A stretch of 64,000 bases of DNA from Thermoplasmata archaeon (GCA_052326305.1 JBKQPJ010000017.1:6475-70474); one strand, 5' to 3'; shown: positions 16,999 to 46,641, counted from the first letter of the stretch. The notes: a model not told the origin generated them from the letters alone. A program made the numbers and translations.

Positions 16999-17086
16999 CG
17001 ATCCGCTCTGAACCTACTACGGGTTCCGTAGGCTGTAGGGCGGGGGGGTCTTGAACGTTTCGTCGGCGGCGGGAGGGCGGGGCGGC

Positions 17087-17806
17087 TCAGGCGGTCGGCG
17101 GGGAAGTCGGCGGTTTGCCGGCCGGCGGAGCGCCCGGTTCGGCGTAGCCGAGCCGCTCGGGAGGCATCTCGTGCTTCGCCCCCTCCCGCCGCCCGACCAC
17201 GAACCCGGCGACGATGGCGATCACGGTCAGGGTGACGATCGTCCCGACGATGATGAAGACGGCCAGCCCCGGCCCCGGGGCCGAGGAGGAGGGGACGAGA
17301 TAGGCCGGGACGGTCGTGTTGAAGGCGATGAAGCCGTACATCCCGGCGGCGAAGTGGCCCGATTCGGTGCAGACGAACTCGTACCAGCCGGGTTTCGATG
17401 GGGCCGTGAAGCTCCGGGTGAGGGAGGATTTGGCCGCGGGGACGATGTTCGCGAGGGGCGGGAGGGCGCACGTCGAACCGGTCCCGTTGATGAATTGCTG
17501 GGGGGTATCGGTCGACGGTATCGAGACGTTCGCGCACCCTAGGATGGTGAACGTATGGATCCCGCCGTTCGTGTCGCCGTTGATGAACTTGAGCGAGATG
17601 GAGACACTCTCGGGCACCCCGTTGATCACGTTCGGGGTGAACCCGAAGGTGCTCGTCGCCGTGACGGTCACGGACGTCGAGGTGTCCACGATCTCGGACG
17701 ACGCCCGGGCCTCCCGGACGACATCGTTGCCTGCCAGTCCCGCGAAGAGGACCAGAAGGAGGATGCCTACCGCCACGGCGGTGCGTCCGGCTCGCTTCAC
17801 TCCCAT
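17087..17806 (-). CDS. membrane-anchored type-1 blue copper protein (sulfocyanin/halocyanin-like cupredoxin)
   Basis: Cu site CTESGHFAAGMYG with upstream GGIHTF His. An N-terminal signal/anchor (ATG verified at 17806) and a C-terminal TM helix; several N-x-S/T sequons. Confidence 0.8.
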   Translation of the reverse strand: MGVKRAGRTAVAVGILLLVLFAGLAGNDVVREARASSEIVDTSTSVTVTATSTFGFTPNVINGVPESVSISLKFINGDTNGGIHTFTILGCANVSIPSTDTPQQFINGTGSTCALPPLANIVPAAKSSLTRSFTAPSKPGWYEFVCTESGHFAAGMYGFIAFNTTVPAYLVPSSSAPGPGLAVFIIVGTIVTLTVIAIVAGFVVGRREGAKHEMPPERLGYAEPGAPPAGKPPTSPPTA

Positions 17807-17941
17807 CCTGTCCGGGGAGCTCCCCCGGCCGCCCCTCGCAGACCGGGTGCGGTTCAAACCCCCTCCGTACGTACCCGTTCGCCCGTATCCGGGGCCCGGG
17901 AGGGCAAAACCGTACGAACGCGGGGGATATGTAGGGCCGTA

Positions 17942-18184
17942 GTGCACGACCCCATCGTGGACGGGTCCAGAACGTCGGGGACGCGGACGATCCCCCTGGC
18001 GTTCGGCTCCTTCGGGGCGGTCGGGTCCGGGACGGCCGGTGCGACGAACCTTCAGCTCACCCAGCCCCTGCTCTGGGCGATGATCGCGATCAGCACCGCC
18101 GGAGCGATCGTGACGTTCGCCTTCCTCGTCTACGCCCTCTGGCGCTACCGGGATCCGGCGGTGCGGAGGCGACGTTATGGTTAA
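17942..18184 (+). CDS. cytochrome oxidase subunit II N-terminal fragment (TM1 + basic cytoplasmic loop); split gene or frameshift
   Basis: Hydrophobic helix LLWAMIAISTAGAIVTFAFLVYALW followed by RYRDPAVRRRRYG. It ends with a TAA that overlaps the ATG of the next ORF (ATGGTTAA). Confidence 0.45.
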   Translation: MHDPIVDGSRTSGTRTIPLAFGSFGAVGSGTAGATNLQLTQPLLWAMIAISTAGAIVTFAFLVYALWRYRDPAVRRRRYG

Positions 18185-18635
18185 CAAGCTCGAGGTCGCC
18201 TGGACCCTCACGGTCGTCGCCCTGATCACCGGGGTCGGCGTGTACTCCACGGTCCTGCTCTACAAGATCGACGCGCTCACACCGAACCCGGCCGAGTACG
18301 TCGAGGTGACCGGCCACCAGTGGTACTGGGAGTTCTGCTACTCGAACAAGACCTGCTTCAACTCGAACTACAACGCCGCCACCGGCCAGACCACCGGCGG
18401 GGCGTTATGGGCGACCCCCGGTTCGGTGATCCAGGTCAACGTCACCGGCGCCGACGTGATCCATTCGTTCAACATCCCGCAGCTCGGCATCCGGATCGAT
18501 GCGATCCCGGACCGGGTGAACACGATCGACATCCAGATCCCGAACGCTCCGGTGGGCACGGAGTACGCGATCCAGTGCACGGAGTTCTGCGGGACGTTCC
18601 ACGGCACGATGCGCTCGGAGCTCGTGCTGACGTAA
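18177..18635 (+). CDS. coxB: cytochrome oxidase subunit II (TM2 + CuA cupredoxin domain)
   Basis: GHQWYWEF aromatic motif and CuA ligands H...CTEFCGTFHGTM. Confidence 0.9.
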   Translation: MVNKLEVAWTLTVVALITGVGVYSTVLLYKIDALTPNPAEYVEVTGHQWYWEFCYSNKTCFNSNYNAATGQTTGGALWATPGSVIQVNVTGADVIHSFNIPQLGIRIDAIPDRVNTIDIQIPNAPVGTEYAIQCTEFCGTFHGTMRSELVLT

Positions 18636-18672
18636 GGCGCCCGAGCTCCCCCGGCGGAGGGGCCGGTCCGGT

Positions 18673-19746
18673 TCACGCGCCGCCGTGCTGGGAGGGAGGC
18701 GACCGGGGGAAGCGGCCGGCGAACCCCGCGACGACCAAGAACACGGCCCCGATCCCGAGGAGGATCGCGGAGCCGGCGAGCACCCACGTCTCCACGATCG
18801 CGCTGCTCGGCGGACCGCCTCCCGTGGGCACCGGGACCCCGGCGTAGAGGTACCCGAACATCCCATTCTCGAAGTGGCCGGGGACGGTGCAGACGAACTC
18901 GTAGATCCCTTTCGCGGGGATCGAGAAGTTGGCCCAACCGCTCTTCCCGGCCTCCGAGGGGATCGTGGCGTTCGCGAGCGGAGGATGGTCCTTGAGCCAG
19001 CCCACCGTCGTGATGTTCAGGTCCGGTTGCGCCACGACCGTGAACGTGTGGGCGAGACCGCCGAGATTGGTGACCTTGATGATCACGTTCGCGGGGAACT
19101 GGGCGGGCTGGGCCGAGAGGGCCGCCGGCTGGAAGGAGAAGGAGTTCGTCGCGTTGTCGGAGAGGACGAGACCGGGCGAGCTCGACGAGATGTTCAGGAA
19201 GCCCCACATGCCGGCCTGGAACTGGTACGGGACCTGCGACACGAACTCGAAGGAGTCGAGGCTCGCGGTCTTCGCGATGGAGAAGTTCGCCCATCGTTCG
19301 TGACCCGCGGGGACCGAGACGTTCGCGATCGGCGGGTAGCTGGCGAACGATTCGTTCAGATCTGCCGGAGTCCAGGATCGGTTGAGCAGGACCCCGCTCT
19401 GGCTCGACAGGGTGAAACTATGCGGGAGGAGACCGGTGTTGTTGAGGTGCACCGACACGTTGTCGCCGGGCGCCGCGCTGATCGACCTCGGGTCGAACGC
19501 CGGCCCGTCCGTCAGGACCAGGTAGATCGTCTCGTTGGCCGCCGCCGGGTGGGCGTACCCGACGGACGGGGCGAAGGAGAGGAACGGCACGCCGCGGGCC
19601 CCTCCGACCGACGCGACGACGGCCAGCACGAGCCCGGCGGCGAGCCACGGGGACGCCCGACGCACACCTCCCGCCGATCGGCCCCACGGCGTGACCTTGA
19701 CCGCCTCCCGGGAGACTCTCGACCGCCGAACCGTTGATATCGGCAC
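18673..19746 (-). CDS. two-domain cupredoxin-family surface protein, C-terminally membrane-anchored, heavily N-glycosylation-sequon-rich
   Basis: The C-terminal domain has an intact type-1 Cu site (LAHTF ... CTVPGHFENGMFGY). The N-terminal domain is cupredoxin-like but lacks the Cys/His ligands. Eleven N-x-S/T sequons and a C-terminal TM helix. Confidence 0.75.
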   Translation of the reverse strand: MPISTVRRSRVSREAVKVTPWGRSAGGVRRASPWLAAGLVLAVVASVGGARGVPFLSFAPSVGYAHPAAANETIYLVLTDGPAFDPRSISAAPGDNVSVHLNNTGLLPHSFTLSSQSGVLLNRSWTPADLNESFASYPPIANVSVPAGHERWANFSIAKTASLDSFEFVSQVPYQFQAGMWGFLNISSSSPGLVLSDNATNSFSFQPAALSAQPAQFPANVIIKVTNLGGLAHTFTVVAQPDLNITTVGWLKDHPPLANATIPSEAGKSGWANFSIPAKGIYEFVCTVPGHFENGMFGYLYAGVPVPTGGGPPSSAIVETWVLAGSAILLGIGAVFLVVAGFAGRFPRSPPSQHGGA

Positions 19747-19770
19747 TGTACGAATCGCCCCTCCCTCCCT

Positions 19771-20808
19771 TTAGCGGACGGAGAGGGGCCGGTCGGCCGC
19801 GGACGGTTCCGCCGGGCGCGTGCGGACCGCGGGGCGGGCCGATCCCGTCGCGTCGGTCTGGCGTAACGGCGGGGTGGCGGCCGTCGGTCCGGAGTAGCAG
19901 CGGCGGACGAGGTAGCTCACCTCCCCGACCATGCCGACGGTCATGACCGCGCCGAAGAGTATCCGGGAGGCGTTCTGGCCCCCGTCGGCCACGAGCCCGA
20001 CGGCGGAAACGGCCATGGCCAGGAAGAGCCCGCTGAGCGCGATCAGGAATCGCAACTCGGACGGCGACGCCCGGTGCTGCAGGAGGACCCGGGCCACGAA
20101 CAGGAACAGGCCGACCATCACCGCCGCGGCGGCGAGCCCGCCGACGAGCGGAAAGGCGGTCACCCACGGGGCCGAGACGCTCGCGAGGGCGAGGGCGGCG
20201 GACCCGGATCGCTCGACGGAGGAGAGCGGCGCCCAGAGAAGGAGCGCGATCATCACCACGGCCATCGACCAGTAGAGCCAGATCGACGAGAGGCCGAGGG
20301 CGATCGCCGTCGGGATGGAGAGCGCCCCGCTGGCCCCGCCCACGGCGAACAGGAGCCCCATCAGCACCTCGGAGCCCGTCACCGCGACCCCGAGGGTGAG
20401 CGGCCAGGTCCAGCCCCGCGTGGAGATCGTGCGGTCCTCGAAGAGGATCTGGGAGACGAACCAGAACCCGGCCGGGAACATCATCATGAAGTTGAACGAG
20501 AGCAGCACCCAGGTCCATGCCTCCGTACCGTTCTGGTCGATGAAGACGAAGAGCAGCGAGAGGAGCAGAACGCTCCCTCCCGAGAGCACCGAGAGCGCGA
20601 GGACCAGCTGGGTGAGGAGCGGTGGGGCTCGTTGGCGGGGGAGGACCTTGATCAGGACGAAGACCGTGATCGCGATCATCGCGATGGCGATGACCGCGAA
20701 CGGCAGCAGGGCCGCGCTCACGCCGACGACCGGGAACGGGACCCGCATTCGCTGAGCCCGCCGAGCTCCGGCCGTTTGATATCGTGCCGGTACCGACCCG
20801 CCTCGCAC
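19771..20808 (-). CDS. polytopic membrane protein (7-8 TM), possible oxidase accessory subunit
   Basis: Highly hydrophobic and co-directional with, and directly upstream of, the cupredoxin gene. No diagnostic motif recognised. Confidence 0.55.
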   Translation of the reverse strand: MRGGSVPARYQTAGARRAQRMRVPFPVVGVSAALLPFAVIAIAMIAITVFVLIKVLPRQRAPPLLTQLVLALSVLSGGSVLLLSLLFVFIDQNGTEAWTWVLLSFNFMMMFPAGFWFVSQILFEDRTISTRGWTWPLTLGVAVTGSEVLMGLLFAVGGASGALSIPTAIALGLSSIWLYWSMAVVMIALLLWAPLSSVERSGSAALALASVSAPWVTAFPLVGGLAAAAVMVGLFLFVARVLLQHRASPSELRFLIALSGLFLAMAVSAVGLVADGGQNASRILFGAVMTVGMVGEVSYLVRRCYSGPTAATPPLRQTDATGSARPAVRTRPAEPSAADRPLSVR

Positions 20809-20873
20809 GGCGCCGAGGTGCGGCGCGACGCGCGCGGGACGTGGCTCGGTTCGCGGGGGAGCGGCGGCGGCCC

Positions 20874-22433
20874 TCAGGCGCCGTTCGGGCCGCGAAGGGG
20901 TTTGGCCATGTGGGGGCCCCGCGAAGAGTACCCCTGGCGCCGGTAGTAATCTCGCGTGCCGACGGCGCTCATGACATAGATCTCGTCAAAGCCTCGATCC
21001 CGCGCTTCCTCCTCCGCCGCGGCGAGCAACCTCCGGCCGAAGCCCCGGTGCTGGAAGTCGCCCGGCCCGAGCGCGGGAGCGCCGACGGCGAGCTCCGGGC
21101 CGAGGACCTTGAGCTCGCGGACCACCGGGGCCCGGAGGCCCTCTTCGGTCGTCCCCGACGGGAACCGGAGCCGGAGGAACCCGGCGATGCGATCGCTCTT
21201 CGTCTCCTCGAACGCGAGGAATCGCTCCTCGCCACCGCCGGCGTCGAAGCCCGTTCGGGTCAGGGCGAACTCCTCGGCCGCGGGGGTCGTACCGCGACCG
21301 ACCTCGCGGCAGCGGAGGCACCGGCAGTGAGCGCCGTCCCGCGCGAGCCGCTCCAGGGCGAGCTGGCGAAGGTTGCTCGCGCGAACTCCCGCGGCGATCA
21401 GGCGCGCGGGGATGTCCCTCTGGATCCGGTGGATCCGGACCCACGGCGGGAGCTCCCGCTTCATCGCGGCGAGCAGCTCCGCGGCCCGCTCGACGTCGTA
21501 CGGTTCGTAGCGTCCCGCGGCCCAGTCGTCGTGGAGCGGAGTTCCGGGGAGGACGAGCGTCGGGTAGATCTTGAGGAAGTCGGGGCGGAAAGCGGGCTCG
21601 GCCCACAGTCGACGGAAATCGGCGAGGTCGCTCGTCGGGTCCATGCCCGGCAGGCCGAGCATGAGATGATAGCCGACCTTGAGGCCCCGGTCCCGGGCCT
21701 CGCGGGTCGCCCTCGCCACGTCGCCGCTCGCGTGCGCCCGCCCGACCGCCGCCAGTACGTCGTCGTGGAGGCACTCGACCCCGATCTCGACCCGGGTCAC
21801 CCCGGCCGCCAGGAGGAACGGAAGGACCCGGCCGTCGCACCAATCCGGCCGGGTCTCGACCGTGAGGCCGACGACCCGGTGGGGCCCGGTCTCGTTGCGC
21901 TCCTGAGCCTGGACGAGGGAGGGGGCGGGGGCGCCGCCGTTCAGCCCGTCGTAGACGCCGCGGAAGACCTCCTCCTGGTAGGCGCGCGGGCGCGACGGGA
22001 AGGTGCCGCCCATGACGATCACCTCGACCTTGGAGGTCGGGTGCCCGATCTCCTCCAGCGTCTCGATCCGGTGGCGGGCGATCGCCCCGGCGTCCCAGCG
22101 GAACTGCGCCCCTCGGAGCGCGGACGGCTCCTCGCCGGTGTAGCTCTGGGGGCTGCCGTGGTCGACGCCGCCCGGACAGTAGGTGCACCGGCCGTGGGGG
22201 CACCGGGCGGGAGCGGTCATGACGGCGACGATCGCGACCCCGGAGAGCGTCCGGGACGGCTTGCGGAGGACGACGCCGGCGAAGCGGCCCCGGTCCTCGG
22301 CCGAGCGTCCGCGGACCCAGTCGACGTTCGACGGGAGCGGCCCCCCGGGGATCCGGTGGGCCTCGCGCAGCTTCTCCCGGTGGAGCTCCTCCGGCGTCGG
22401 AGGGGGGACTAGCGGCGAAGCCACGGGCGGCAC
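20874..22433 (-). CDS. elp3: Elp3-like tRNA uridine carboxymethyl synthase (radical SAM + GNAT)
   Basis: Radical SAM cluster CPHGRCTYCPGG and a C-terminal GNAT acetyltransferase domain. Confidence 0.9.
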   Translation of the reverse strand: MPPVASPLVPPPTPEELHREKLREAHRIPGGPLPSNVDWVRGRSAEDRGRFAGVVLRKPSRTLSGVAIVAVMTAPARCPHGRCTYCPGGVDHGSPQSYTGEEPSALRGAQFRWDAGAIARHRIETLEEIGHPTSKVEVIVMGGTFPSRPRAYQEEVFRGVYDGLNGGAPAPSLVQAQERNETGPHRVVGLTVETRPDWCDGRVLPFLLAAGVTRVEIGVECLHDDVLAAVGRAHASGDVARATREARDRGLKVGYHLMLGLPGMDPTSDLADFRRLWAEPAFRPDFLKIYPTLVLPGTPLHDDWAAGRYEPYDVERAAELLAAMKRELPPWVRIHRIQRDIPARLIAAGVRASNLRQLALERLARDGAHCRCLRCREVGRGTTPAAEEFALTRTGFDAGGGEERFLAFEETKSDRIAGFLRLRFPSGTTEEGLRAPVVRELKVLGPELAVGAPALGPGDFQHRGFGRRLLAAAEEEARDRGFDEIYVMSAVGTRDYYRRQGYSSRGPHMAKPLRGPNGA

Positions 22434-23554
22434 TCTCCGGTGAGCACGTAGGGCACCTTCTGGAGCTCCGCGATCGACCGGGCGCCCGTCAGGAACATCG
22501 CGACCTTCAGCTCGTGAACGAGGGTCTCGAGCTCCGCCCGGGTCTCCTCGAACCCCGTGGACGCGGCCCGCAGGAGGCCGCCGGCAATCCCGGCGGCCGT
22601 CGCCCCCAGCGCGACCGCCCGCGCGACATCGAGGCCGGAGCGGACCCCACCGCTCGCGACGACGGGCAGGCCGAGCGGGGCGACCTCGAGGACGGAGATC
22701 GGCGCCGGGATGCCCCAGTCCCAGAACGTCTTGCCGACGCGGGCCTCGCGCGCGGCGCCCCGGTCGATCGCGCGGTAGTACTCGACGGCCGCGAAGGAGG
22801 TGCCGCCCGTGCCGCTCACGTCGAACGCCCGCACGCCCCGGTCCCGGAGGGATTCGCCGACCGGCCGAGAGAGCCCGGCTCCGGTTTCCTTCACCAGCAC
22901 CGGGAACTGGTGGGCGAGCTCCCCGATCCGGTCGAGGCAGCCCTTCGCCCGCCGGTCCCCTTCGGGCTGGACCATCTCCTGAAGGAAGTTGAGGTGGATC
23001 GCGAGGACGTCGGCGTGGATGAGCTCCATCGCGCGGCGGACCTCTTCGGGCCCGACGACCGGATCGCCCGGCTTCTGCCCGATGAGCTGGGGGGCCCCGA
23101 TGTTCGCGAGCTTCAGCGGAACGGCATGCCGGGCGACGCAGGAGTAGCTTTCCGGGTACTGTCCCTTCACGACGGCGGCCCGCTCGCTCCCGACGCCCAT
23201 CGCGACGCCGACCTCGGCCGCCGCGCGCGCAAGGTGGTCGTTGATCTTCGCCGCATCGGGGAACCCGCCGGTCATTCCGGTGATCAGGATGGGCGCCCGA
23301 AGGGCGTGACCCAGGAGCGAGGTCGAGGTGTCAATCTCCTCGAAATCGACCTCGGGGAGCGCCCGGTGCACCAGCTGCACGTCGTTCCAGTAGCGGTACC
23401 TTCCTTCGACGTCCCGCCCGAGGACCACCTTGACGTGCTCGGCCTTGCGGTGGCTCAGGTCGAGCCCGTCGCGATCGGGCGACCTACCCGGGCCGCGCGT
23501 GCGCCCAGCTTCCGTAGACCGACTCCCCGCGAATCGCCCGCGCGATCGCTCCAT
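22409..23554 (-). CDS. fni: isopentenyl-diphosphate delta-isomerase type 2 (FMN-dependent)
   Basis: HRKAEHVKVVL N-terminal motif and a TIM-barrel FMN-binding pattern (GGTSFAAVE...). The exact start is uncertain. Confidence 0.9.
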   Translation of the reverse strand: MERSRGRFAGSRSTEAGRTRGPGRSPDRDGLDLSHRKAEHVKVVLGRDVEGRYRYWNDVQLVHRALPEVDFEEIDTSTSLLGHALRAPILITGMTGGFPDAAKINDHLARAAAEVGVAMGVGSERAAVVKGQYPESYSCVARHAVPLKLANIGAPQLIGQKPGDPVVGPEEVRRAMELIHADVLAIHLNFLQEMVQPEGDRRAKGCLDRIGELAHQFPVLVKETGAGLSRPVGESLRDRGVRAFDVSGTGGTSFAAVEYYRAIDRGAAREARVGKTFWDWGIPAPISVLEVAPLGLPVVASGGVRSGLDVARAVALGATAAGIAGGLLRAASTGFEETRAELETLVHELKVAMFLTGARSIAELQKVPYVLTGECRPWLRR

Positions 23555-24302
23555 CGGTCAAACCGCTAATAAGTACTGCGTCCACGCCGGCGCGGGCGAT
23601 CCGGCGCATCGACTCGGCCTTGCCCTGGATCCCGCCCGTCACGTCGGCCGAGCCTCCCGCCCGGGGGAGCGAGGCGGCCAGCGCGTCGGTGATCTCGGGG
23701 AGGACCTGACGGCGGCTCCCCCGGTTCTCCTCGAGGATCCCGGGAACGTCGGTCGCGAACACGACCCGTGAGGGTCGCAGCAGGGGCACGAGCGCCTCCG
23801 CGATCGTGTCGGCGCTGAGGACCGAGAAGCCCCATTCGTCGTCCGGCACGACGTCCCCGAAGGAGACCGGCGTCGCCCCGCGGGCGAGGGCCTCCTCGAT
23901 CGGGGTTGCATCGATGGCGACGAGCGAGCCGGCCCGGTTCCGGGCGTGGGTCGCCATCGGCGTGGAGAGGGGCGCGAGCCCCGCCCGAACGAGCTCCCGA
24001 AGGAGCGCGAGGTGGAGGCGCCGGACCTCGGCAGAGACGATCGCCGCCCCGCGGGTCCTCTCGGTCGGCTTCTCCCGAGGCAACGGGGGGCGCGCGAGGC
24101 CGAAGCGCTTCGCGCCGGGGTGACCGAACGATCCGGCTCCGTGGAGGAGGACAAGGGGCACGTCCCGAACGGTGGCGAGCTCGGCGGCGACCCGGGCGAT
24201 GACCTTCGGTCGAAGCTTCTCGACCTCACGCTTCCGGGTGACGAGGCTCCCTCCGAGCTTGAGCACGACGGGCCGCCGAGGGACCTCGGCCGTCGGGGGC
24301 AT
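23484..24302 (-). CDS. ipk: isopentenyl phosphate kinase
   Basis: Amino-acid-kinase fold VLKLGGSLVT ... LLHGAGSFGH. ATG verified at 24302. Confidence 0.85.
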   Translation of the reverse strand: MPPTAEVPRRPVVLKLGGSLVTRKREVEKLRPKVIARVAAELATVRDVPLVLLHGAGSFGHPGAKRFGLARPPLPREKPTERTRGAAIVSAEVRRLHLALLRELVRAGLAPLSTPMATHARNRAGSLVAIDATPIEEALARGATPVSFGDVVPDDEWGFSVLSADTIAEALVPLLRPSRVVFATDVPGILEENRGSRRQVLPEITDALAASLPRAGGSADVTGGIQGKAESMRRIARAGVDAVLISGLTDGAIARAIRGESVYGSWAHARPG

Positions 24303-37871: not shown

Positions 37872-39470
37872 TCATCCCTTGTATTTTTCAACTGCTCCCG
37901 TACCGGGGACCGTCGGAGGCGGCTCCGGGGCGTCGAGGATCCCCCAATCGACGACCCCGGCGGTCTCGAGCAGACGGGCGAGCGCGGCGTGGTACCCATC
38001 GGCCGGGGCGCGCAAGAGCGCGCGCGCTTGCGGCTCGAGGGATTGACCGAACTCCCGTTCGGTCGGAGAGAACTGCCAGGCGTGGGCGCTTCCGCGGCCG
38101 AGCGCGAGGAGGAGCCCGTAGGCGAGCCCCCGCTCCTTGCCCTCCCGGGGAAGCGACTGGAGGATCGCCCGCTCCGCCCCGGCGTCGCCCCGGGTGCGGT
38201 GCTCCCGGGCGATCCGGTCGACCCACCCGGCCTCCCGGGCGAGGCGCTGGTAGCGGGGAAGGGCCTCGAGCACCTCGCGCTCCTCGTTCCGGCGCTGCGC
38301 CCGCTTCAGGATCTCGGCGACCCGGCCCGGAGCGTTCCGCGCTTCCTCGACCAGGCGGCGGGCCTCCTCCGGATCCGGGACGATCGCGCCGACGATCTCC
38401 TCGGCGTGCTCGGTCCAGAGCCGCTCGAGCGCCCGGCTCGCCGAGGGCTCGTCGACCTCGAAGTACCCCCGCTCGCCGGCGAGGACCTCCTCGAGCGCGC
38501 GCCGCTCGACCGGGGTCGCTCCGAGGGCGTCCAGGAACTCGGACCGTCGGTTCCCATAGCAGATGCCGCCGGCCACGAACGTCGGTCGGTCCGCCCGCTC
38601 GATCCGCGGCTTGAGCTCGGCGACGTACTCGTCGAGGAGCTGGCCGTCCGAGAGCCGTCCGAGCTCGTAGCGCTTCAGCAGGCTGCGGGGAAGGTCGGGC
38701 AGCCGGGCGTGGACGCACTCCTCGCCGCCCTGGCAACGGACGTTGAGGAACGCCGAGACGACGAACTCGCTCGAAGGGTCCGGCACGATCGCGCCGTCCG
38801 AGAGGCTCGACAGGAGATGCCGGTCCGCCTTCGCGCAGCGACGGCAGACCCGGAACGACCGTTCCGCCCCCGGCCATCCGACCTCGAGGAACGGCCGGGC
38901 CTCGCCGGCCGCGAGGTGCGAGCAGTCGAGCCGGTGGTGGGTGGGGTCCTCGATCAGCCGGTACGGGAGCTCGCCGACCCGCTCGGAGAGGAAGTCGGGC
39001 GGAGGCCGCGGCGAGCGGCCGGTGCACCAGAGCGTGCGCCGCGTGGCAAAGAAATGGAAGCCTTTGCGGGCCCAGTCGACGTAGCCGAGCAGCAGGCGGG
39101 TCGGGTCGTCCGACTGCTGGACCGCGACCTCCGCCTCGCGCGTGGTGCGGGCCAGGGCGACGTACGAGACCTCTCCGTCCGGGACCGAGAAGCTGACGAC
39201 CACGGGGGTCGTCGGTTCGAGCGCGAACTTGAGGAGCCCGGCGTACGCCCGGGCGATCGGGTCCCCGTGCCGCGAGAACCGCTCGATGCGGCGCTCGTCG
39301 TCGGCCGCGGCGCGGACCTCCTCGAGCTCCTCGCGCAACCGGTCGAACCGCTCCGTGGGGCAGTCCGGGGTCAGTCGGGGCAAGAGGCCATCGACCCGCT
39401 CCGAGAGCGACTTCGCGCGGGCGACGAGATCCTGTTCCCGTACTCCCGAGCCCCGACGGATTCTCGCCAC
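37872..39470 (-). CDS. hypothetical 532-aa protein with Cys pairs (possible zinc ribbon)
   Basis: Long, compositionally complex ORF with CRRC and CQGGEEC motifs and no P-loop. Directly upstream of the receiver gene. Confidence 0.5.
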   Translation of the reverse strand: MARIRRGSGVREQDLVARAKSLSERVDGLLPRLTPDCPTERFDRLREELEEVRAAADDERRIERFSRHGDPIARAYAGLLKFALEPTTPVVVSFSVPDGEVSYVALARTTREAEVAVQQSDDPTRLLLGYVDWARKGFHFFATRRTLWCTGRSPRPPPDFLSERVGELPYRLIEDPTHHRLDCSHLAAGEARPFLEVGWPGAERSFRVCRRCAKADRHLLSSLSDGAIVPDPSSEFVVSAFLNVRCQGGEECVHARLPDLPRSLLKRYELGRLSDGQLLDEYVAELKPRIERADRPTFVAGGICYGNRRSEFLDALGATPVERRALEEVLAGERGYFEVDEPSASRALERLWTEHAEEIVGAIVPDPEEARRLVEEARNAPGRVAEILKRAQRRNEEREVLEALPRYQRLAREAGWVDRIAREHRTRGDAGAERAILQSLPREGKERGLAYGLLLALGRGSAHAWQFSPTEREFGQSLEPQARALLRAPADGYHAALARLLETAGVVDWGILDAPEPPPTVPGTGAVEKYKG

Positions 39471-39531: not shown

Positions 39532-40095
39532 TCACCGACGGCAGACGTCGAGGAAATGGCGGAAGATCTCCCGCCCGCCCTCGGTGTGCTCGACCTCGGG
39601 GTGGAACTGCACGCTCCAGATCGGCCGGACGGGGTGCGCCATCGCCTCCACCGGGCAGGATGCCGAGTGGGCGAGCACCGGCCACCCCGGCGGCGGCGTC
39701 ACGACCTGGTCGTTGTGGCTCGCCCAGACCTTGAACCGGTGCGGCAGCCCGGCGAACATCGGGTGGTCGGGGCGGTCCACGGTGAGGTCGACCGAGCCGA
39801 ACTCGGGTCCCCCCCGCGCGACGGTCCCGCCGAATCGGCGGCCGACGAACTGGTGGCCGACGCAGATCGCGAGCACCGGGACCGGGACCGAATCGATCCA
39901 GTCGTCCACCCGTCCGAGCGGGGCCGCGGAGCCCTCGAGGCTGAGGGCCCCGCCCGACAGCACGATCCCGTCGGCGTCGAGCTCGGCAAGGGGGGTGGTG
40001 TTCGCGACGATCCGGCTCTCCGCGCCGAGGTCCCGCAGCACCCGCCACTCGCGGTGGGTCCACTGGCCCCCGTTGTCGATCACCGGGATCTTCAC
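39532..40095 (-). CDS. guaAA: GMP synthase subunit A (class-I glutamine amidotransferase)
   Basis: GATase triad context LAICVGHQ ... HPE. Confidence 0.8.
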   Translation of the reverse strand: MKIPVIDNGGQWTHREWRVLRDLGAESRIVANTTPLAELDADGIVLSGGALSLEGSAAPLGRVDDWIDSVPVPVLAICVGHQFVGRRFGGTVARGGPEFGSVDLTVDRPDHPMFAGLPHRFKVWASHNDQVVTPPPGWPVLAHSASCPVEAMAHPVRPIWSVQFHPEVEHTEGGREIFRHFLDVCRR

Positions 40096-40460
40096 GACCG
40101 CTCCGGGGGACGACGCGGAGGCGGCGGGGGATCCCGAGCGTCGGGTCGGACGGCGCGGCGGATCTCCTCGACCGCCGAGCGCATATCCCGGACCTCGGAG
40201 CGCATCCGGAGCATCTCCTGCTCGTACGGCGTGAACCCGAGCGGCGTCAGCAGCCGGTGGGAGATGTAGAGGCCGATGAAGATCGCGCCGACCACGGCGA
40301 GCAGCGTGGTGAAGACGAGCGCGGTCACCAGGGCGATCGGGTCCCCTAGGGCGAGTTGGATCGGCAGGGTGAACAGGTGGGTCAGCTCGGCGACCTCGAC
40401 CCCGAGGAGGATCACGATCAGCCCTCCCCAGACGGCAAAGATCGTCCAGGACCGCCTCAC
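40092..40460 (-). CDS. hypothetical membrane protein
   Basis: Three hydrophobic helices. A GTG start is inferred to avoid overlap with the upstream gene. Confidence 0.4.
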   Translation of the reverse strand: MRRSWTIFAVWGGLIVILLGVEVAELTHLFTLPIQLALGDPIALVTALVFTTLLAVVGAIFIGLYISHRLLTPLGFTPYEQEMLRMRSEVRDMRSAVEEIRRAVRPDARDPPPPPRRPPERS

Positions 40461-41026
40461 GGCGGGCTCCCGGAGCCCCAGTCCTGGAGCAGCAGTACGA
40501 GCGGCAGGCTGCCGATCGATAGGGGGGAGGACGGCGGCGTGGCCCCGTAGCACGCCGCGCTCGACAGGTACCCGCCCGAGGTGTCGAAGGCGAGCTCGGC
40601 GGAGTAGTTCGCCGTCGAGCCGCCCTCGATGTACGTGGCCGTGGCGACGATCGCCACCGGGTTCTGTTCGGTCTCCGCGCTCACCTCGAGGACGTTCTTC
40701 TGGTCCACCGGGGCGCCGAAGGTGAGCCCCGAGCCGGGACAGACGCCGCTCCAGGCGAAGTTCGAGGCGAGCATGATCGAGATCTCGGCGTACCGCACGG
40801 TCGGCCCGACGGCATGCACGTAGAAGGTCGTGTTGTTGCTGCTCGGGAGCTGGTCGACGATCAGCTCCGCCTGCGTTTCGAACGAGCCGGCGGCGGGAGG
40901 GCCGGAGGCGAACAGGATCGGAGTGAACACGATCAGCACCAGCAGGATCGCGGTCGCCCCGACGAGCGGGATCGGGAACAGCTCCCCGCGGGGGGTGGGA
41001 AGCGGGGGCGGAGGGGCCGCGCTCAC
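40457..41026 (-). CDS. hypothetical N-terminally anchored extracellular protein
   Basis: GTG start overlapping the ubiX stop. Pro-rich segment then a TM helix, a Ser/Thr-rich ectodomain and N-x-S/T sequons. Confidence 0.45.
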   Translation of the reverse strand: MSAAPPPPLPTPRGELFPIPLVGATAILLVLIVFTPILFASGPPAAGSFETQAELIVDQLPSSNNTTFYVHAVGPTVRYAEISIMLASNFAWSGVCPGSGLTFGAPVDQKNVLEVSAETEQNPVAIVATATYIEGGSTANYSAELAFDTSGGYLSSAACYGATPPSSPLSIGSLPLVLLLQDWGSGSPP

Positions 41027-41598
41027 CGCTTCTCGGACCCCCAGGGCCGGTAGAGCCGGTGGCGGAGGCCGAACCGGTCGAGGACCTTGCCGACGAGGTA
41101 GTCGGTGACGTCGTCGATCGACCGGGGGTGGAGGTAGTACGCCGGGGCGGCGGCGAGGACGACGACGCCGAGCTCGCTGAGGGTCGTCAGGTGGCGGAGC
41201 ATCAGCGTCGGGAGCGGCGTTTCCCGCGGCACGACCACGAGGGGGCGCCGCTCCTTCAAGTGGACGTGCGCGGCCCGCGAGATCAGGGTGTCCCCGAGCC
41301 CGAGGGCGATCCGGGCGACGGTGTTGGAGGAGCACGGGACGACGACCATCCCGCGGGTCGGCTGGGTGCCGCTCGCGATCGGGGCCGCGAGCTCGTCGTC
41401 CGGGTAGACATGGCGGGCGAGCTTCGCGAGCTCCCCCTCGTCGATCCCCGCCTCTTCCTTCAGGACCTTCCGACCCCCGGCCGAGACGACGAGCGCGACG
41501 GGCACCCGGGCCCCGTGGAGCCACTCGAGCAGGCGGACCGCGATCGGGGCGCCGCTCGCGCCCGAGACCGCCACGACGATCGGAGGAGTTTCTGCCAT
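41023..41598 (-). CDS. ubiX: flavin prenyltransferase UbiX
   Basis: Flavoprotein fold with VAVSGASGA and a UbiX/Pad1 pattern. Confidence 0.9.
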   Translation of the reverse strand: MAETPPIVVAVSGASGAPIAVRLLEWLHGARVPVALVVSAGGRKVLKEEAGIDEGELAKLARHVYPDDELAAPIASGTQPTRGMVVVPCSSNTVARIALGLGDTLISRAAHVHLKERRPLVVVPRETPLPTLMLRHLTTLSELGVVVLAAAPAYYLHPRSIDDVTDYLVGKVLDRFGLRHRLYRPWGSEKR

Positions 41599-41661: not shown

Positions 41662-42828
41662 GTGGGAGGGCATCGGGCGGCCGTCATCGGCGCGGGGCAT
41701 ACCCGGTTCGGCCCGCTCCCCGACGGTCCCCGGGCGCTCCTCCGTTCGGCCATCGAGCGGGCCGTGGAGAGCGTGGACCGCGGTCTCGAGACGACGTCGA
41801 TCGGGGCGGCCTACCTCGCCACCCTCGGGTTCGGCGGCTGGCAGATCGGGAACGCCTCCGCGCTCCTGGCCGAGGAGGCCGGCCTCCCGGGGATCCCCTC
41901 GGTGCGGGTCGAGAACGCCTGCGCCTCGGGCGGCTTCGCCCTGCACGCCGCCGTCCATGCCGTCGCCTCCGGGGCAGTGGAGCTCGCGCTCGTCGTGGGC
42001 CTCGAGAAGATGACGGACGTCTCGAACGCGAGACGCCGGTACTGGCTGGGGGTCTCGGGGGAGACCGAGTGGGAGCGCCAGGCCGGTCTGACGTTCGCCG
42101 GGGTCTACGGCCTGATCGCCTCCCGGTACCTCGCCCTCCACGCCGTCGGGCCGGAGGCGCTCGCCGAGGTCGCCGTCAAGAACCACGCGAACGGCGCGCG
42201 CAACCCGAACGCGCACTTCCAGAAGGAGATCACGCGGGAGGCGGCCCTCGCGTCCCCGCGGGTCGCCGACCCGCTCGGCCTCTACGACTGCTGTCCCGTG
42301 AGCGACGGGGCGGCGGCGGTCCTGCTGGCCGCTCCCGAGGTGGCGCGCCGGTACACCGACACCCCGGTGTACGTCGACGGGGTGGGGGCGGCCTCCGACT
42401 TCCTCGCCGTTCAGGAACGGCCCGAACCGACGCGCTTCGAAGCGACGCGCCGCGCCGGGGAGGCGGCCCTCCGGACCGCCGGCTGCGAGCGAAAGGAGCT
42501 CTCGTTCCTCGAACTTCACGACTGCTTCACGATCGCCGAGCTGCTGGCGCTCGAGGACCTCGGGTTCGCCGAGCGGGGGAGCGCCGGGGCGCTGACGCTC
42601 TCGGGCGCGACCCGGCGGGACGGTCCGCTCCCGGTGAACCCGGACGGAGGGCTGAAGGCGAAGGGCCATCCGATCGGCGCCACGGGAGTGTCGCAGGCGT
42701 ACGAGGTGTTCGTTCAGCTCCGCGGCCAGGCCGGCGCCCGCCAGGTCTCCCGACGGGATCGCGCGCTGACGCACAACGTCGGAGGAGCGGGGGCGACGGC
42801 CGCGGTCACCGTCTTCTCCGCGGGGTGA
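41662..42828 (+). CDS. archaeal-type thiolase (acetyl-CoA C-acetyltransferase)
   Basis: Catalytic Cys in VENACASGG and C-terminal GHPIGATG, NVGGAG motifs. Confidence 0.9.
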   Translation: MGGHRAAVIGAGHTRFGPLPDGPRALLRSAIERAVESVDRGLETTSIGAAYLATLGFGGWQIGNASALLAEEAGLPGIPSVRVENACASGGFALHAAVHAVASGAVELALVVGLEKMTDVSNARRRYWLGVSGETEWERQAGLTFAGVYGLIASRYLALHAVGPEALAEVAVKNHANGARNPNAHFQKEITREAALASPRVADPLGLYDCCPVSDGAAAVLLAAPEVARRYTDTPVYVDGVGAASDFLAVQERPEPTRFEATRRAGEAALRTAGCERKELSFLELHDCFTIAELLALEDLGFAERGSAGALTLSGATRRDGPLPVNPDGGLKAKGHPIGATGVSQAYEVFVQLRGQAGARQVSRRDRALTHNVGGAGATAAVTVFSAG

Positions 42829-42832
42829 ACCC

Positions 42833-43876
42833 GTGAACGGGATCGTTCGGGCGGGGGCGTACGCTCCGGCCTGGGGCTCGGGCGGGCGTCGCGTCCCCGG
42901 CCCCGACGAGGACGCCTTCACCCTCGCGGCGACCGCCGTCGAACGGGCGGTCGGTCCTTCGATCCTCCCCTCTTCGCCCGTGACGGTGGACGTCATCGGC
43001 GAGGCGGGCGAGGCGGCGTCGTGGGGTTTCGGCCCGCTCCTCGGGGTAGAGGCGCGGGTCCGCTCCCACCCCGGGGGCCCGGCGGCCCTCGGGAGCGCGC
43101 TCTCCTCCGCCCGAGCTGGCCCGGGTTCAGGGCTAGTCGTGGCCGTGGACCTGGGGAGCAGTGGAGGGCCCGATCACGACTCTCGCGGGGCCGGCGCGGT
43201 CGCGTTCTTCCTCGCGGCCGAGGCGCGGGAGGACGCCGAGTTCGGGTCGCCGCCGGCACCGCTCGGTCCTTCCGAGACGGCCGTCGACCTCGCGAGACGG
43301 TGGTTCCGTGACCGATCGGAGGCGGCCCGAGCCTCCTGGATCGGGGACTGGCGGCCGAACCACCGGCCGCTCCGGCCCTCTCCGCTCGTCCCGGGGGCGG
43401 CGCCGGCTCCTCCGAGCCCCGCGGTCTCCGAGGGAGCCTACCTGCCGCGACCGCGATATGTGGAGGGGCTGCCGAGCCGGTGGAGGTTCGCGGCCGAGCG
43501 CTGTGGGACCTGTGGCCGTATCGGCTTCCCGGTCCGTCGCCGGTGCCGGGGGTGCGGAAGAGCCGATTCGCTGGAGCTCCTCCACCTGCCGCGGGACGGC
43601 GGGAAGGTCGTCGCGCTGACCTGGATCGGGCGGGGGGGCCAGCCGACCGAGTTCGACCCTCAGGTCGAGGCGACAGGACCGTACGGGGTCGTCCTGGTCG
43701 AGCTCGCCGAGGGGATCCGCGCCACGCTGCAGTTGACCGACTGCGACCCAGGGGAAGTTCGGATCGGGGACCCGGTAGGGAGCCGCCTTCGCAGGATCTA
43801 CGCGCTCGAAGGGGAGTGGCGGTACGGGCGCAAGGCGGTCCCGATGCGGGAGACGGCCCCCCCTCCCGTGGCGTGA
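42833..43876 (+). CDS. fusion protein: degenerate HMG-CoA-synthase N-half-like domain + DUF35 (Zn-ribbon/OB-fold thiolase-HMGCS scaffold)
   Basis: N-terminal approximately 200 aa align with the HMGCS N-half (GIVRAGAYAP; PDEDAFTLAATAVERA; GAGAVAFFLAA) but contain no cysteine. The C-terminus has CGTCGRIGFPVRRRCRGCGR and an OB-fold typical of DUF35. Confidence 0.7.
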   Translation: MNGIVRAGAYAPAWGSGGRRVPGPDEDAFTLAATAVERAVGPSILPSSPVTVDVIGEAGEAASWGFGPLLGVEARVRSHPGGPAALGSALSSARAGPGSGLVVAVDLGSSGGPDHDSRGAGAVAFFLAAEAREDAEFGSPPAPLGPSETAVDLARRWFRDRSEAARASWIGDWRPNHRPLRPSPLVPGAAPAPPSPAVSEGAYLPRPRYVEGLPSRWRFAAERCGTCGRIGFPVRRRCRGCGRADSLELLHLPRDGGKVVALTWIGRGGQPTEFDPQVEATGPYGVVLVELAEGIRATLQLTDCDPGEVRIGDPVGSRLRRIYALEGEWRYGRKAVPMRETAPPPVA

Positions 43877-44931: not shown

Positions 44932-46641
44932 ATGCCGGCGCGAGTGATGAAGGAGTTCCAGGCCCCCCGGGGCCTTCCGCGGAAGACGGCGTCCGTCTGC
45001 CCTGAGTGCATCAAGGTGATTCCGGCGATCGTCCGGGAGAAGGACGGCCGCGTGATCATGGAAAAGACGTGCCGCGCGCACGGCTATTTCTGGGACATCA
45101 TCTCTAACGACGTCGACTTCTACCTCCGGATGGAGGTCTACGCGCACGACGGCGTCGGCTACGAGAACCCGTACTACGAGAAGTTCATCGGCTGCCCGAC
45201 GACCTGCGGAATGTGCAGCCACCACAAGTCCCACACGGGACTGGCGTTGGTGGACCTGACGAACCGCTGCAACCTGAAGTGCCCGGTCTGCTTCGCGAAC
45301 GCCAACGCCGCCGGCTACGTCTTCGAGCCGACCCGCGAGCAGATCCACTTCATGCTGAAGACGCTCCGGGAGCAGAAGCCGGTGGGCACGGTCGCCGTCC
45401 AGTTCTCGGGCGGGGAGCCGACGCTGTCGCCGCTGTTCCTCGACGCCGTGTCGATGGCCCGGGACCTGGCGTTCAAGCAGATCCAGGTCGCCACGAACGG
45501 GATCCGCGTCGCGAACGAGCCCGGCTTCGCCCAGGCGTGCCGGAACGCGGGCCTCCACACTCTGTACCTGCAGTTTGACGGGCTGGACGACGAGATCTAC
45601 CGGAAGGTCCGAGGGGTCCCGCTGTTCAAGGTGAAGCAGAAGGCGATCCAGGCCGCGCGGGAGACCCACTCCTCCCCCGCCGAGCTCGCCGCGGGCAAGC
45701 CCGACAAGCCGATCTCCGTGGTGCTCGTCCCGACCCTCGTCGGCGGGTTCAACGAGAAGGAGATCTGGCCGACCGTGAAGTTCGCGATCGACAACATCGA
45801 CGTCGTCCGCGGCGTCAACTTCCAGCCGGTCGCCCTGACCGCCCGGATCCCCGACAAGGACCGCTTCCAGATGCGGTTCACTCAGTCCGACCTGGTCCGC
45901 ATCCTCTGCACCGAGGGACCGTTCGAGAAGTCCGACTTCTTCCCCGTCCCATCGGTCGCCCCGATCTCGGAGCTCGTCTCGATCATCCACGGCGAGGAGA
46001 AGATGACCCTGACGACGCACCCGGGCTGCGGCTGCGCCACGTTCGCCTTCGTCTCGGAGGACGGCCAGAAGATCACTCCCCTGCCGCGGTTCATGGACGT
46101 CGACGGCTTCTTCGAGAACGTCGAGTCGATGATCGAGAAGTACCGGGACGCGCGGTTCTCGCGGGTCCGCACGGCGGTGGCCGGGGCCCGGCTGCTCCAC
46201 GACGTGTCGAAGTACTTCGACTTCTCGAAGGCCCCGGAGGGCCTGAACGAGAAGAACTGCGTCAAGGTGATCGCCGGGATCTTCACCGAGGGCAACAAGG
46301 AGGCGCTCGCGCAGTTCACCTGGCGGACGATGTACATCGGCAACATGCACTTCCAGGACGCCTACGACTACGATATCCAGCGCCTGATGCGCTGCGACAT
46401 CCACTACGCGGTGCCGGACGGGCGCGTCATCCCGTTCTGCTCGTACAACTCGGGCCCGATCTACCGGACGGAGGTCGAGCAGAAGTTCTCGATCCCGATC
46501 AAGGACTGGCAGCGGGCGAAGCAGCAGGCCGGCGTTCCGCTGAAGACGCTCGAGACGATGGGCGTCAACGGCGAAGTGATCGTCGACCCCGAGTACTACA
46601 AGATCCGGGCGCTCAAGGGCGCCCCGGGGATGTCGGCGTAG
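44932..46641 (+). CDS. tes: radical SAM protein, tetraether lipid synthase (Tes/GDGT-MAS)-like
   Basis: N-terminal CPEC...C..H rubredoxin-like site, a second Cys cluster CPTTCGMCSHH, the radical SAM CNLKCPVCF motif and a C-terminal HPGCGC. GGAGGAGGG RBS before the ATG at 44932. Confidence 0.7.
   Translation: MPARVMKEFQAPRGLPRKTASVCPECIKVIPAIVREKDGRVIMEKTCRAHGYFWDIISNDVDFYLRMEVYAHDGVGYENPYYEKFIGCPTTCGMCSHHKSHTGLALVDLTNRCNLKCPVCFANANAAGYVFEPTREQIHFMLKTLREQKPVGTVAVQFSGGEPTLSPLFLDAVSMARDLAFKQIQVATNGIRVANEPGFAQACRNAGLHTLYLQFDGLDDEIYRKVRGVPLFKVKQKAIQAARETHSSPAELAAGKPDKPISVVLVPTLVGGFNEKEIWPTVKFAIDNIDVVRGVNFQPVALTARIPDKDRFQMRFTQSDLVRILCTEGPFEKSDFFPVPSVAPISELVSIIHGEEKMTLTTHPGCGCATFAFVSEDGQKITPLPRFMDVDGFFENVESMIEKYRDARFSRVRTAVAGARLLHDVSKYFDFSKAPEGLNEKNCVKVIAGIFTEGNKEALAQFTWRTMYIGNMHFQDAYDYDIQRLMRCDIHYAVPDGRVIPFCSYNSGPIYRTEVEQKFSIPIKDWQRAKQQAGVPLKTLETMGVNGEVIVDPEYYKIRALKGAPGMSA

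What the first reader, a model, noticed from the sequence alone, without database searches (positions are those of the whole stretch)
42833..43876. Catalytically dead HMG-CoA-synthase N-half fused to a DUF35 scaffold, next to the archaeal thiolase
In archaea thiolase, HMGCS and a small DUF35 protein form a channeling complex. Here the gene after thiolase has a DUF35 Zn-ribbon/OB C-terminus preceded by about 200 aa resembling only the N-terminal half of HMGCS. That half has no cysteine at all (catalytic Cys absent) and lacks the His-containing C-half. It could be a pseudo-enzyme scaffold, or a remnant of an HMGCS-DUF35 fusion whose real HMGCS lies elsewhere.
Basis: partly seen in the sequence, partly recalled or inferred. 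Interest (0 to 1): 0.6.

Follow-up and report, generated by a model that had tools for sequence, protein, structure and literature searches.

The report
Vestigial HMG-CoA synthase scaffold protein
This conserved archaeal protein is a dead, half-deleted HMG-CoA synthase fused to a DUF35 scaffold and paired with an intact thiolase. The same lineage keeps its real HMG-CoA synthase elsewhere, next to a thiolase that has lost its own catalytic residues.

Summary

The protein belongs to a large Thermoplasmata family. Orthologues in the same syntenic slot are 417-500 aa and keep a reduced second half. Full-length relatives (about 460-496 aa, also in haloarchaea) align with true HMGCS over 318 columns, and the three I inspected lack the E-C-H-N tetrad. 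The window protein is therefore the end of an in-place deletion series of a dead HMGS-DUF35 fusion.

A relative carrying the family (MAG DASPSQ) also has a canonical HMGCS-thiolase-DUF35 operon. In every Thermoplasmatota operon I fetched, that thiolase lacks the nucleophile Cys, and most lack the GHx His. It is under purifying selection in the three loci tested. The window thiolase keeps C87/H286/H336.

Best reading: a non-catalytic partner of a live thiolase, possibly the working acetoacetyl-CoA thiolase. A bacterial dead-HMGS-DUF35/ACAT complex was published in 2026. This is a new variant of a known kind.

The parts
41662..42828 (+). Thiolase 'ThlB' (388 aa), archaeal/SCP2 type. Catalytic motifs are intact: C87 in NACASG, H286 in HDCF, H336 in GHP.
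   Evidence: Pfam Thiolase_N and Thiolase_C_1. NF004720 435 bits against a cut-off of 420. Best PDB hits are 7yvy_A (261 bits) and 6esq_A (229 bits). Motif positions.
42822..42832 (+). Junction GGGGTGAACCC: the thiolase stop codon TGA lies inside a GGTGA Shine-Dalgarno-like string, 4 nt before the GTG start. This suggests co-translation.
   Evidence: Sequence read. In homologous loci the two genes overlap by 4 nt or are 4-6 nt apart.
42833..43237 (+). Residues 1-135: N-terminal half of an HMGS-like thiolase fold. Catalytic Glu and Cys are absent. Invariant D25-E26-D27 and E37.
43238..43423 (+). Residues 136-197: what is left of the C-half. One helix (150-159), the last strand with the W-x-G-D-W motif (169-173), and a Pro-rich linker.
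   Evidence: Alignment with intermediate and full-length forms. Secondary structure. Mean pairwise identity only 22%.
43424..43489 (+). Residues 198-219: the nearly invariant VSEGAYxPRxRYxExLxSRWRF segment, which leads into the DUF35 module.
   Evidence: The GAYVS motif is also invariant in full-length fusions.
43490..43567 (+). Residues 220-245: four-Cys zinc ribbon of DUF35 (C224, C227, C238, C241).
   Evidence: zf-ChsH2 hit in 71 of 72 family members. The cysteines are invariant.
43568..43876 (+). Residues 246-347 plus the stop codon: OB fold of DUF35 and a short tail.

Best explanation
The 347-aa protein is the non-catalytic partner subunit of the thiolase encoded just upstream.

Its C-terminal DUF35 module (zinc ribbon plus OB fold) binds the thiolase, as DUF35 does in every solved thiolase-DUF35 assembly. 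Its N-terminal 135 residues are the leftover half of an HMG-CoA-synthase-like subunit. That subunit was fused to DUF35, had already lost its catalytic tetrad, and was later cut down by internal deletions. The protein cannot make HMG-CoA.

In this lineage the real HMG-CoA synthase sits in a separate HMGCS-thiolase-DUF35 operon. The thiolase of that operon has lost its nucleophile. The cell therefore appears to hold two mirror-image modules: live HMGCS with a dead thiolase, and live thiolase with a dead half-HMGS.

Shown here: fold, lost residues, deletion series, conserved gene pairing, and co-occurrence of both modules in one MAG.

Inferred: physical complex formation, thiolase activity, and the further step that this pair is the cell's working acetoacetyl-CoA thiolase feeding the mevalonate pathway. 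I put that last step at about 0.45.
For: Fold and dead residues.

Family size: at least 180 clusters (50% identity) at E<=1e-30. The top 120 hits are full length.

Gene pair and synteny: conserved in L004-L006, L138 and L139, with overlapping or closely abutting genes.

Partner thiolase: it keeps C/HDCF/GHP in all 8 distinct ThlB-clade sequences aligned.

Canonical operon in the same MAG as a family member.

Operon thiolase in Thermoplasmatota: none of the operon thiolases aligned has the Cys. They form one clade. dN/dS is 0.15-0.20 for the three pairs tested. The adjacent HMGCS keeps E/C/H/N in 23 complete loci.

Precedents: the DUF35 beta subunits of haloarchaeal BktB/PhaA are indispensable for thiolase activity (PMC7137286, citing Hou 2013). 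MucB is insoluble alone, and PfACAT with a dead HMGS-DUF35 is an active thiolase (PMC12960953). Saci_1121 needs Saci_1120 (bioRxiv 10.1101/2024.07.05.601840).
Against: No complex was modelled or measured.

The N-half core is weakly conserved (29% mean identity over residues 41-135, 22% in the linker), so it may be close to dispensable.

Direct sequence similarity of the short form to true HMGCS is weak (hhalign probability 17%, E 0.0014 over 40 columns). The link rests on structure and on intermediates.

The canonical operon was seen in a relative's MAG, not in the window's own genome.

Homologous full-length pairs sit in a beta-oxidation-like cluster in Haloferax. The Pseudomonas complex only cleaves acetoacetyl-CoA (PMC12960953). 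The pair may therefore have nothing to do with mevalonate.

The genomes may hold other thiolases that I could not see.
Confidence: 0.65

Rival explanations
1. The pair is a thiolase for something other than isoprenoid synthesis, such as thiolytic cleavage in acyl-CoA or aromatic-acid catabolism, or an archaeal fatty-acid pathway. The fusion protein serves only as its DUF35 scaffold. Acetoacetyl-CoA for mevalonate comes from another enzyme.
For: In H. mediterranei pHM500 the full-length homologous pair lies among paaK, MaoC, a hotdog thioesterase, a second thiolase, a hydroxyacyl-CoA dehydrogenase and an enoyl-CoA hydratase. Its thiolase is 49% identical to the window thiolase. PfACAT/HMGS-DUF35 cleaves acetoacetyl-CoA but does not condense (PMC12960953). 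Archaea often carry several thiolase/DUF35 pairs with different roles (bioRxiv 10.1101/2024.07.05.601840).
Against: No catabolic genes flank the pair in the Thermoplasmata loci. The conserved neighbours are UbiX, GuaA subunit A and Tes. The operon thiolase of the lineage lacks its nucleophile, so some other thiolase must act.
Confidence: 0.3
2. The fusion protein bridges the neighbouring live thiolase to the live HMGCS encoded elsewhere, rebuilding one channelling complex from two operons. For example, the retained N-half (the dimerisation half of thiolase folds) could dock on HMGCS.
For: What survives the deletions is the N-half plus DUF35. The AF2 model is rigid (pTM 0.90). The two modules have complementary dead and live subunits.
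Against: The HMGCS operon has its own stand-alone DUF35 and a conserved thiolase-like subunit. There is no interaction evidence. The N-half core is poorly conserved.
Confidence: 0.15
3. The N-terminal part is decaying junk on a functional DUF35, or the gene is a pseudogene.
For: Low conservation of residues 41-197 (22-29%). Progressive deletions across orthologues.
Against: The reading frame is intact with coding-type GC3 throughout. There are hundreds of full-length homologues. Motifs in residues 1-40 and GDW are invariant. The AF2 fold is confident. No stand-alone DUF35 of about 140 aa was seen in this syntenic slot in the five loci looked up.
Confidence: 0.07

Closest known systems
[quoted passage not shown] 2018, cited in PMC12960953)
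   Different: Here the HMGS part has no catalytic tetrad and only half a fold, and it is fused to DUF35. The gene order is thiolase then fusion, not HMGCS-thiolase-DUF35. The true complex genes lie elsewhere in the lineage.
PfACAT/HMGS-DUF35 of Pseudomonas fluorescens, plus about 1,000 similar bacterial loci (Nat Commun 2026, PMC12960953)
   Same: An HMGS-like domain fused N-terminally to DUF35. The E-C-H-N tetrad is lost. The adjacent ACAT keeps Cys, HDxF and GHx. Gene order is ACAT then fusion.
   Different: The bacterial protein has a full-length HMGS domain. The window protein is archaeal and keeps only about 135 residues of it. The paper mined bacterial genomes only. Activity is untested here.
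PhlABC and MucABC acyltransferases (PDB 5M3K, 9VBO)
   Different: Their thiolase subunit lacks HDxF and acts as a C-acetyltransferase. The window thiolase keeps HDCF. They have three separate genes and a secondary-metabolism context.
[quoted passage not shown] 2013, via PMC7137286), and the S. acidocaldarius KT/DUF35 pair Saci_1121/1120
   Same: A thiolase plus a co-transcribed DUF35 subunit that is required for activity or solubility.
   Different: Their beta subunits are bare DUF35 (BktB-beta is 120 aa) with no HMGS remnant. BktB-alpha has Ser at the nucleophile position.
Uncharacterised haloarchaeal pair, e.g. H. mediterranei pHM500 HFX_RS18410/HFX_RS18405
   Same: A direct homologue of the module. 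Its thiolase is 49% identical. Its 476-aa 'zinc ribbon domain-containing protein' matches both the N-half (E 4e-5) and the DUF35 (E 1e-17) of the window protein.
   Different: It has a full-length dead HMGS domain and sits in a catabolic gene cluster on a megaplasmid.

Membership tests
DUF35 (Pfam zf-ChsH2 PF12172 + OB_ChsH2_C PF01796) | OB-fold domain scoring above the Pfam gathering threshold | tested here: met
   39.3 bits against 27.1. 68 of 72 family members hit at E<=1.
DUF35 (Pfam zf-ChsH2 PF12172 + OB_ChsH2_C PF01796) | Four-cysteine rubredoxin-like zinc ribbon preceding the OB fold | tested here: met
   C224/C227/C238/C241 are invariant. zf-ChsH2 scores 17.5 bits in the window protein, below the 23.2 cut-off, but it hits 71 of 72 members with best E 1e-7.
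DUF35 (Pfam zf-ChsH2 PF12172 + OB_ChsH2_C PF01796) | Structural match to solved DUF35 proteins and adjacency to an SCP2/archaeal-type thiolase gene | tested here: met
HMG-CoA synthase (NF003274 / TIGR00748 / Pfam HMG_CoA_synt_N and _C) | Catalytic tetrad Glu-Cys-His-Asn (E82/C114/H238/N270 in 6ESQ numbering) | tested here: not met
   No Cys in residues 1-223. The aligned Cys position is variable (His/Pro/Ser/Arg) and the Glu position is hydrophobic. The His/Asn region is deleted.
HMG-CoA synthase (NF003274 / TIGR00748 / Pfam HMG_CoA_synt_N and _C) | Both halves of the thiolase fold, and a family-model score above the cut-off | tested here: not met
HMG-CoA synthase (NF003274 / TIGR00748 / Pfam HMG_CoA_synt_N and _C) | Descent from HMGS (homology of the N-half) | tested here: met
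Archaeal thiolase/HMGCS/DUF35 channelling complex | Active HMGCS, active thiolase and DUF35 encoded together | tested here: not met
   There is no HMGCS in the 64-kb window or in the 4.5 to 7 kb of flanking contig recovered at each end. Only the dead half is present.
Archaeal thiolase/HMGCS/DUF35 channelling complex | Physical complex with a shared CoA-binding site | not testable with these tools
   No multimer modelling and no model coordinates were available.
Dead-HMGS-DUF35 fusion with active ACAT (PfACAT/HMGS-DUF35 type, PMC12960953) | HMGS-like domain and DUF35 in one polypeptide, tetrad lost, next to a thiolase keeping CxS, HDxF and GHx | tested here: met
Dead-HMGS-DUF35 fusion with active ACAT (PfACAT/HMGS-DUF35 type, PMC12960953) | Complete (two-half) HMGS-like domain | tested here: not met
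   The short form lacks about 90 residues that intermediate orthologues have, and more relative to full-length forms.
Dead-HMGS-DUF35 fusion with active ACAT (PfACAT/HMGS-DUF35 type, PMC12960953) | Thiolytic but not condensing activity on acetoacetyl-CoA | not testable with these tools
   Needs an enzyme assay.
PhlABC/MucABC C-acetyltransferases | Thiolase-like subunit lacking the HDxF motif | tested here: not met
   The window thiolase has H286-D-C-F.

The most novel reading that the evidence does not exclude
Across the phylum Thermoplasmatota the textbook thiolase/HMGCS channelling complex has been split into two complementary half-dead modules: live HMGCS with a pseudo-thiolase, and live thiolase with a pseudo-HMGS. 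These either co-assemble through their pseudo-enzyme subunits or have given up channelling altogether. The window protein is then the most reduced pseudo-HMGS. Its natural deletion series marks the minimal part (N-half plus DUF35) that the thiolase still needs.
Probability: 0.3. Interest if true: 0.8.

Novelty: new variant of a known kind. Interest (0 to 1): 0.6.

Why it matters
The first two steps of archaeal isoprenoid lipid synthesis are thought to run in one thiolase/HMGCS/DUF35 complex that pulls an unfavourable condensation forward.

If the operon thiolase of Thermoplasmatota really is inactive, then a whole phylum must make acetoacetyl-CoA some other way. That phylum includes Thermoplasma and the gut methanogens of Methanomassiliicoccales. 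The thiolase paired with this vestigial HMGS-DUF35 protein is the obvious candidate.

The orthologous series runs from full-length through reduced to halved. It is a ready-made deletion experiment on what a pseudo-enzyme scaffold must retain.

It also matters for annotation. Several of these dead fusions are labelled 'hydroxymethylglutaryl-CoA synthase', and Cys-less thiolases may likewise be read as active enzymes, which would mislead pathway reconstruction from MAGs.

Tried and rejected
1. Pfam and NCBIfam on the single sequence gave nothing for residues 1-200. Only the family profile and the structure revealed the fold.

2. I looked for HMGCS inside the window by eye and by Pfam on ambiguous ORFs. 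There is none.

3. Both window ends were extended with the look-up of encoding contigs. There is no HMGCS there. An HTH gene at the right end looked like the HTH gene that precedes HMGCS in relatives, but it is unrelated.

4. I tried to link HMGCS and the fusion on one contig by matching longest_contig values. There was no match beyond the DASPSQ MAG.

5. Three blind look-ups for the window's own HMGCS (P0342, P0310, P0304) landed in other MAGs.

6. The afdb50 fold library was unavailable.

A single protein worked.

8. I considered that the neighbouring thiolase is the mevalonate-operon thiolase. I rejected this: it is 40-47% identical to operon thiolases, forms a separate clade, and scores lower on the AcCoTHIOL_METTL model (374 against 497 bits).

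9. I considered that 'no Cys' alone means dead. This was tempered, because active BktB-alpha has Ser at that position. The operon thiolases, however, have Gly/Asp/Glu/Thr there, and most also lack the GHx His.

10. I considered a Thermoplasmatota-specific duplication with reciprocal loss. This was weakened because homologous dead-HMGS modules exist in haloarchaea.

11. Literature searches found no description of the Cys-less operon thiolase or of the halved fusion. Voegeli 2018 and Hou 2013 are not held.

Full report
**What is there**

ORF 42833..43876 (+, GTG start, 347 aa) begins 4 nt after the stop codon of a 388-aa thiolase (41662..42828, +). The thiolase stop lies inside a GGTGA string. 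GC3 is 0.80-0.88 along the whole ORF in this frame, as in neighbouring genes. The window is about 71% G+C. An identical protein is recorded from a Thermoplasmata MAG, GCA_052325905.1.

**C-terminal module**

Residues 198-337 are a DUF35 module.
- Pfam OB_ChsH2_C scores above its threshold, and there is a four-Cys zinc ribbon.

**N-terminal module**

No library model hits residues 1-200. A profile of 72 homologues matches the N-terminal halves of HMG-CoA synthases and PhlA in the PDB: 5hwq E 2e-4, 9skh_A 0.008, 1x9e 0.009.

The AlphaFold2 model is confident (pLDDT 89.4, pTM 0.90).
- KAS III enzymes and other HMGCSs follow.
- MucA and PhlA score 11.8 and 11.5.
- Foldseek agrees.

The protein's only cysteines are the four zinc ligands and C304. 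No column of residues 1-197 has Cys in more than 2 of 72 sequences. The positions aligned with catalytic Glu and Cys are variable or hydrophobic.

**Family and origin**

The protein is not an oddity.
- An exhaustive profile search finds 1,053 representative clusters at E<=1e-3 and 180 at E<=1e-30.
- The 120 best homologues are 328-369 aa. Nearly all cover the full length, and those that carry an organism name are 'Thermoplasmata archaeon'.
- The same search shows relatives of 417-509 aa.
- Relatives of 417-500 aa also come from Thermoplasmata MAGs.

Two of the longer relatives, P0381 (434 aa) and P0411 (483 aa), lie in exactly the same syntenic slot as the window gene. The order is Kdp, Usp, TP-methylase..., GuaA-A, two small ORFs, UbiX, then thiolase and fusion..., Tes. 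They are therefore orthologues.

Longer relatives (459-496 aa, e.g. P0251) carry a complete HMGS-like domain. It matches 6esq_I at E 2e-17 and the archaeal HMGCS equivalog at 130 bits (below the 244 cut-off). In P0251, S/P/N/D replace E/C/H/N.

Profile-profile comparisons close the chain:

| Comparison | E-value | Aligned columns |
|---|---|---|
| Short vs intermediate | 5e-105 | 345 |
| Intermediate vs full-length | 5e-50 | 400 |
| Full-length vs true HMGCS | 3e-29 | 318 |
| Short vs true HMGCS (direct) | 0.0014 | 40 |

Two internal deletions explain the short form. It keeps the N-half, one helix and the last strand.

Full-length forms also directly follow a thiolase that is 54-63% identical to the window thiolase. 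They occur in cultured haloarchaea. In H. mediterranei pHM500, HFX_RS18410/18405 lie inside a paaK/MaoC/thiolase/dehydrogenase/hydratase cluster.

**Where the real HMGCS is**

The window holds none, nor do the 4.5 to 7 kb of flanking contig recovered at each end.

I scanned species-representative genomes for the HMGCS motif FHQPN...GN written in G+C-rich codons. This returned 120 loci, nearly all true archaeal-type HMGCS genes.

One locus, L041, is contig DASPSQ010000003.1 of the same MAG that carries family member P0064 on contig DASPSQ010000006.1. It encodes HMGCS, a thiolase and a stand-alone DUF35 in a row. Its complete HMGCS (P0265, 350 aa) passes both archaeal HMGCS equivalog models and has E81/C113/H235/N267.

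The same operon is present in other G+C-rich Thermoplasmata MAGs. Its HMGCS is 83-90% identical across more than 120 clusters. The fusion family, by contrast, is only 44-57% identical to the window protein.

I could not confirm the operon in the window's own genome.

**An unexpected mirror image**

I aligned about 80 thiolases from the fetched loci at the three catalytic motifs.
- Every thiolase paired with a dead HMGS-DUF35 fusion keeps Cys/HDCF/GHP. This covers the window, L004-L006, L138, L139, L143, L144 and Haloferax HFX_RS18410.
- Every thiolase inside the HMGCS operon of Thermoplasmatota lacks the nucleophile Cys. It has Gly, Asp, Glu or Thr there, or a Cys shifted by two positions. This covers the G+C-rich lineages, Methanomassiliicoccales and Thermoplasma.
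- Most of these operon thiolases also lack the GHx His, and some lack the HDxF His.
- They form one clade in a neighbour-joining tree.
- They align end to end with 6esq_A (352 bits), with the substitutions RVEGGGASGA, EINDSY and GRPFG.
- Three pairwise comparisons within the G+C-rich lineage give dN/dS of 0.15-0.20.
- The HMGCS next to them keeps all four catalytic residues in 23 complete loci.
- Operon thiolases of other archaea and most bacteria keep C/H/H.

One caveat. The active haloarchaeal BktB-alpha has Ser at the nucleophile position (PMC7137286), so absence of Cys alone is not proof of inactivity. Gly, Asp, Glu or Thr at that position, together with loss of the GHx His in most, makes inactivity the likely reading.

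I found no description of this in the searchable literature. The 2018 structure paper is not held.

**How it most likely works**

DUF35 subunits bind SCP2/archaeal-type thiolases in every solved assembly that turned up here (6ESQ, 5M3K, 7PXP, 6OK1, 9VBO). They are needed for thiolase activity or solubility in Haloferax, Sulfolobus and Streptococcus systems (PMC7137286; bioRxiv 10.1101/2024.07.05.601840; PMC12960953).

A Pseudomonas ACAT with a fused, tetrad-less HMGS-DUF35 is an active thiolase (PMC12960953).

By analogy, the 347-aa protein is the obligatory non-catalytic partner of the upstream live thiolase, and its HMGS half is a structural vestige. The tight gene junction argues for co-expression and probably a stoichiometric complex.

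The lineage's HMGCS-operon thiolase looks inactive. That makes this live thiolase the obvious source of acetoacetyl-CoA for mevalonate, and it sits beside UbiX and near Tes and IDI2. This last step is inference, at about 0.45. The haloarchaeal context and the thiolysis-only Pseudomonas enzyme support a non-isoprenoid role as the main rival.

**Comparison with what is known, and novelty**

The architecture of a dead HMGS fused to DUF35 next to an intact ACAT was published for bacteria in January 2026 (PMC12960953). The following appear to be new:
- the archaeal occurrence;
- the halving of the HMGS domain through an orthologous deletion series;
- the complementary Cys-less thiolase in the true HMGCS operon.

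I rate it a new variant of a known kind, with interest 0.6.

Noticed in passing
Related loci L011, L018-L020, L023, L030, L035, L041, L044, L046, L052, L055, L061, L071, L072, L076, L084, L094, L095, L106, L127, L133, L135, L145: The thiolase inside the canonical HMGCS-thiolase-DUF35 operon of every Thermoplasmatota locus fetched lacks the nucleophile Cys, and most lack the GHx His. The adjacent HMGCS keeps E/C/H/N. dN/dS for the thiolase is 0.15-0.20 in the three pairs tested.
   Followed up: partly
window 44932..46641 (+): Tetraether lipid synthase Tes (radical SAM; NF045702 574 bits against a cut-off of 450). It is syntenic downstream of the thiolase pair in all related loci.
   Followed up: partly
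window 22412..23557 (-) and 41023..41598 (-): Type 2 IPP isomerase (TIGR02151, 365 bits) and a UbiX flavin prenyltransferase. UbiX is transcribed divergently from the thiolase. Together with Tes they form a loose isoprenoid-lipid neighbourhood.
   Followed up: partly
window 37872..39470 (-), 40092..40460 (-), 40457..41026 (-): Three ORFs (532, 122 and 189 aa) have no Pfam or NCBIfam hit. ORFs of matching size and order fill the stretch between GuaA-A and UbiX, and beyond GuaA-A, in most related loci looked up. Function unknown.
   Followed up: no
window 9642..20985: Aerobic respiratory cluster: COX1, a COX2-like cupredoxin, cytochrome b and a Rieske protein. The organism is probably an aerobe or facultative aerobe.
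   Followed up: partly
L012, L014-L016, L021, L022, L026, L031, L033, L036, L043 and many others: The archaeal-type HMGCS-thiolase-DUF35 operon is widespread in bacterial MAGs (Anaerolineae, Acidobacteriota, Planctomycetota, Eisenbacteria), at 55-67% identity to 6esq_I. In one Anaerolineae group (L031, L096, L120, L126) the thiolase has Asp or Ser in place of the Cys.
   Followed up: partly
L034 (CAVDQR010000106.1, 'Bacteroides ovatus') and L064 (CAVICI010000004.1, 'Dialister hominis'): These contigs (G+C 0.61-0.62) carry the archaeal HMGCS operon. They are 79-84% DNA-identical over 2.7-4 kb to Methanomassiliicoccales MAG loci. They are almost certainly mis-binned archaeal contigs.
   Followed up: partly
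Proteins P0242, P0248, P0406, P0436: JGI annotation names several tetrad-less HMGS-DUF35 fusions 'hydroxymethylglutaryl-CoA synthase'. This is likely a mis-annotation that could inflate pathway calls in MAGs.
   Followed up: partly
L147 (H. mediterranei pHM500 374335-383750) and L148 (1-14000): Haloferax carries a full-length homologue of the module (HFX_RS18410/18405) in a beta-oxidation/phenylacetate-like cluster. BktB-alpha (HFX_RS16840) has Ser at the thiolase nucleophile position, and BktB-beta is a bare 120-aa DUF35.
   Followed up: partly
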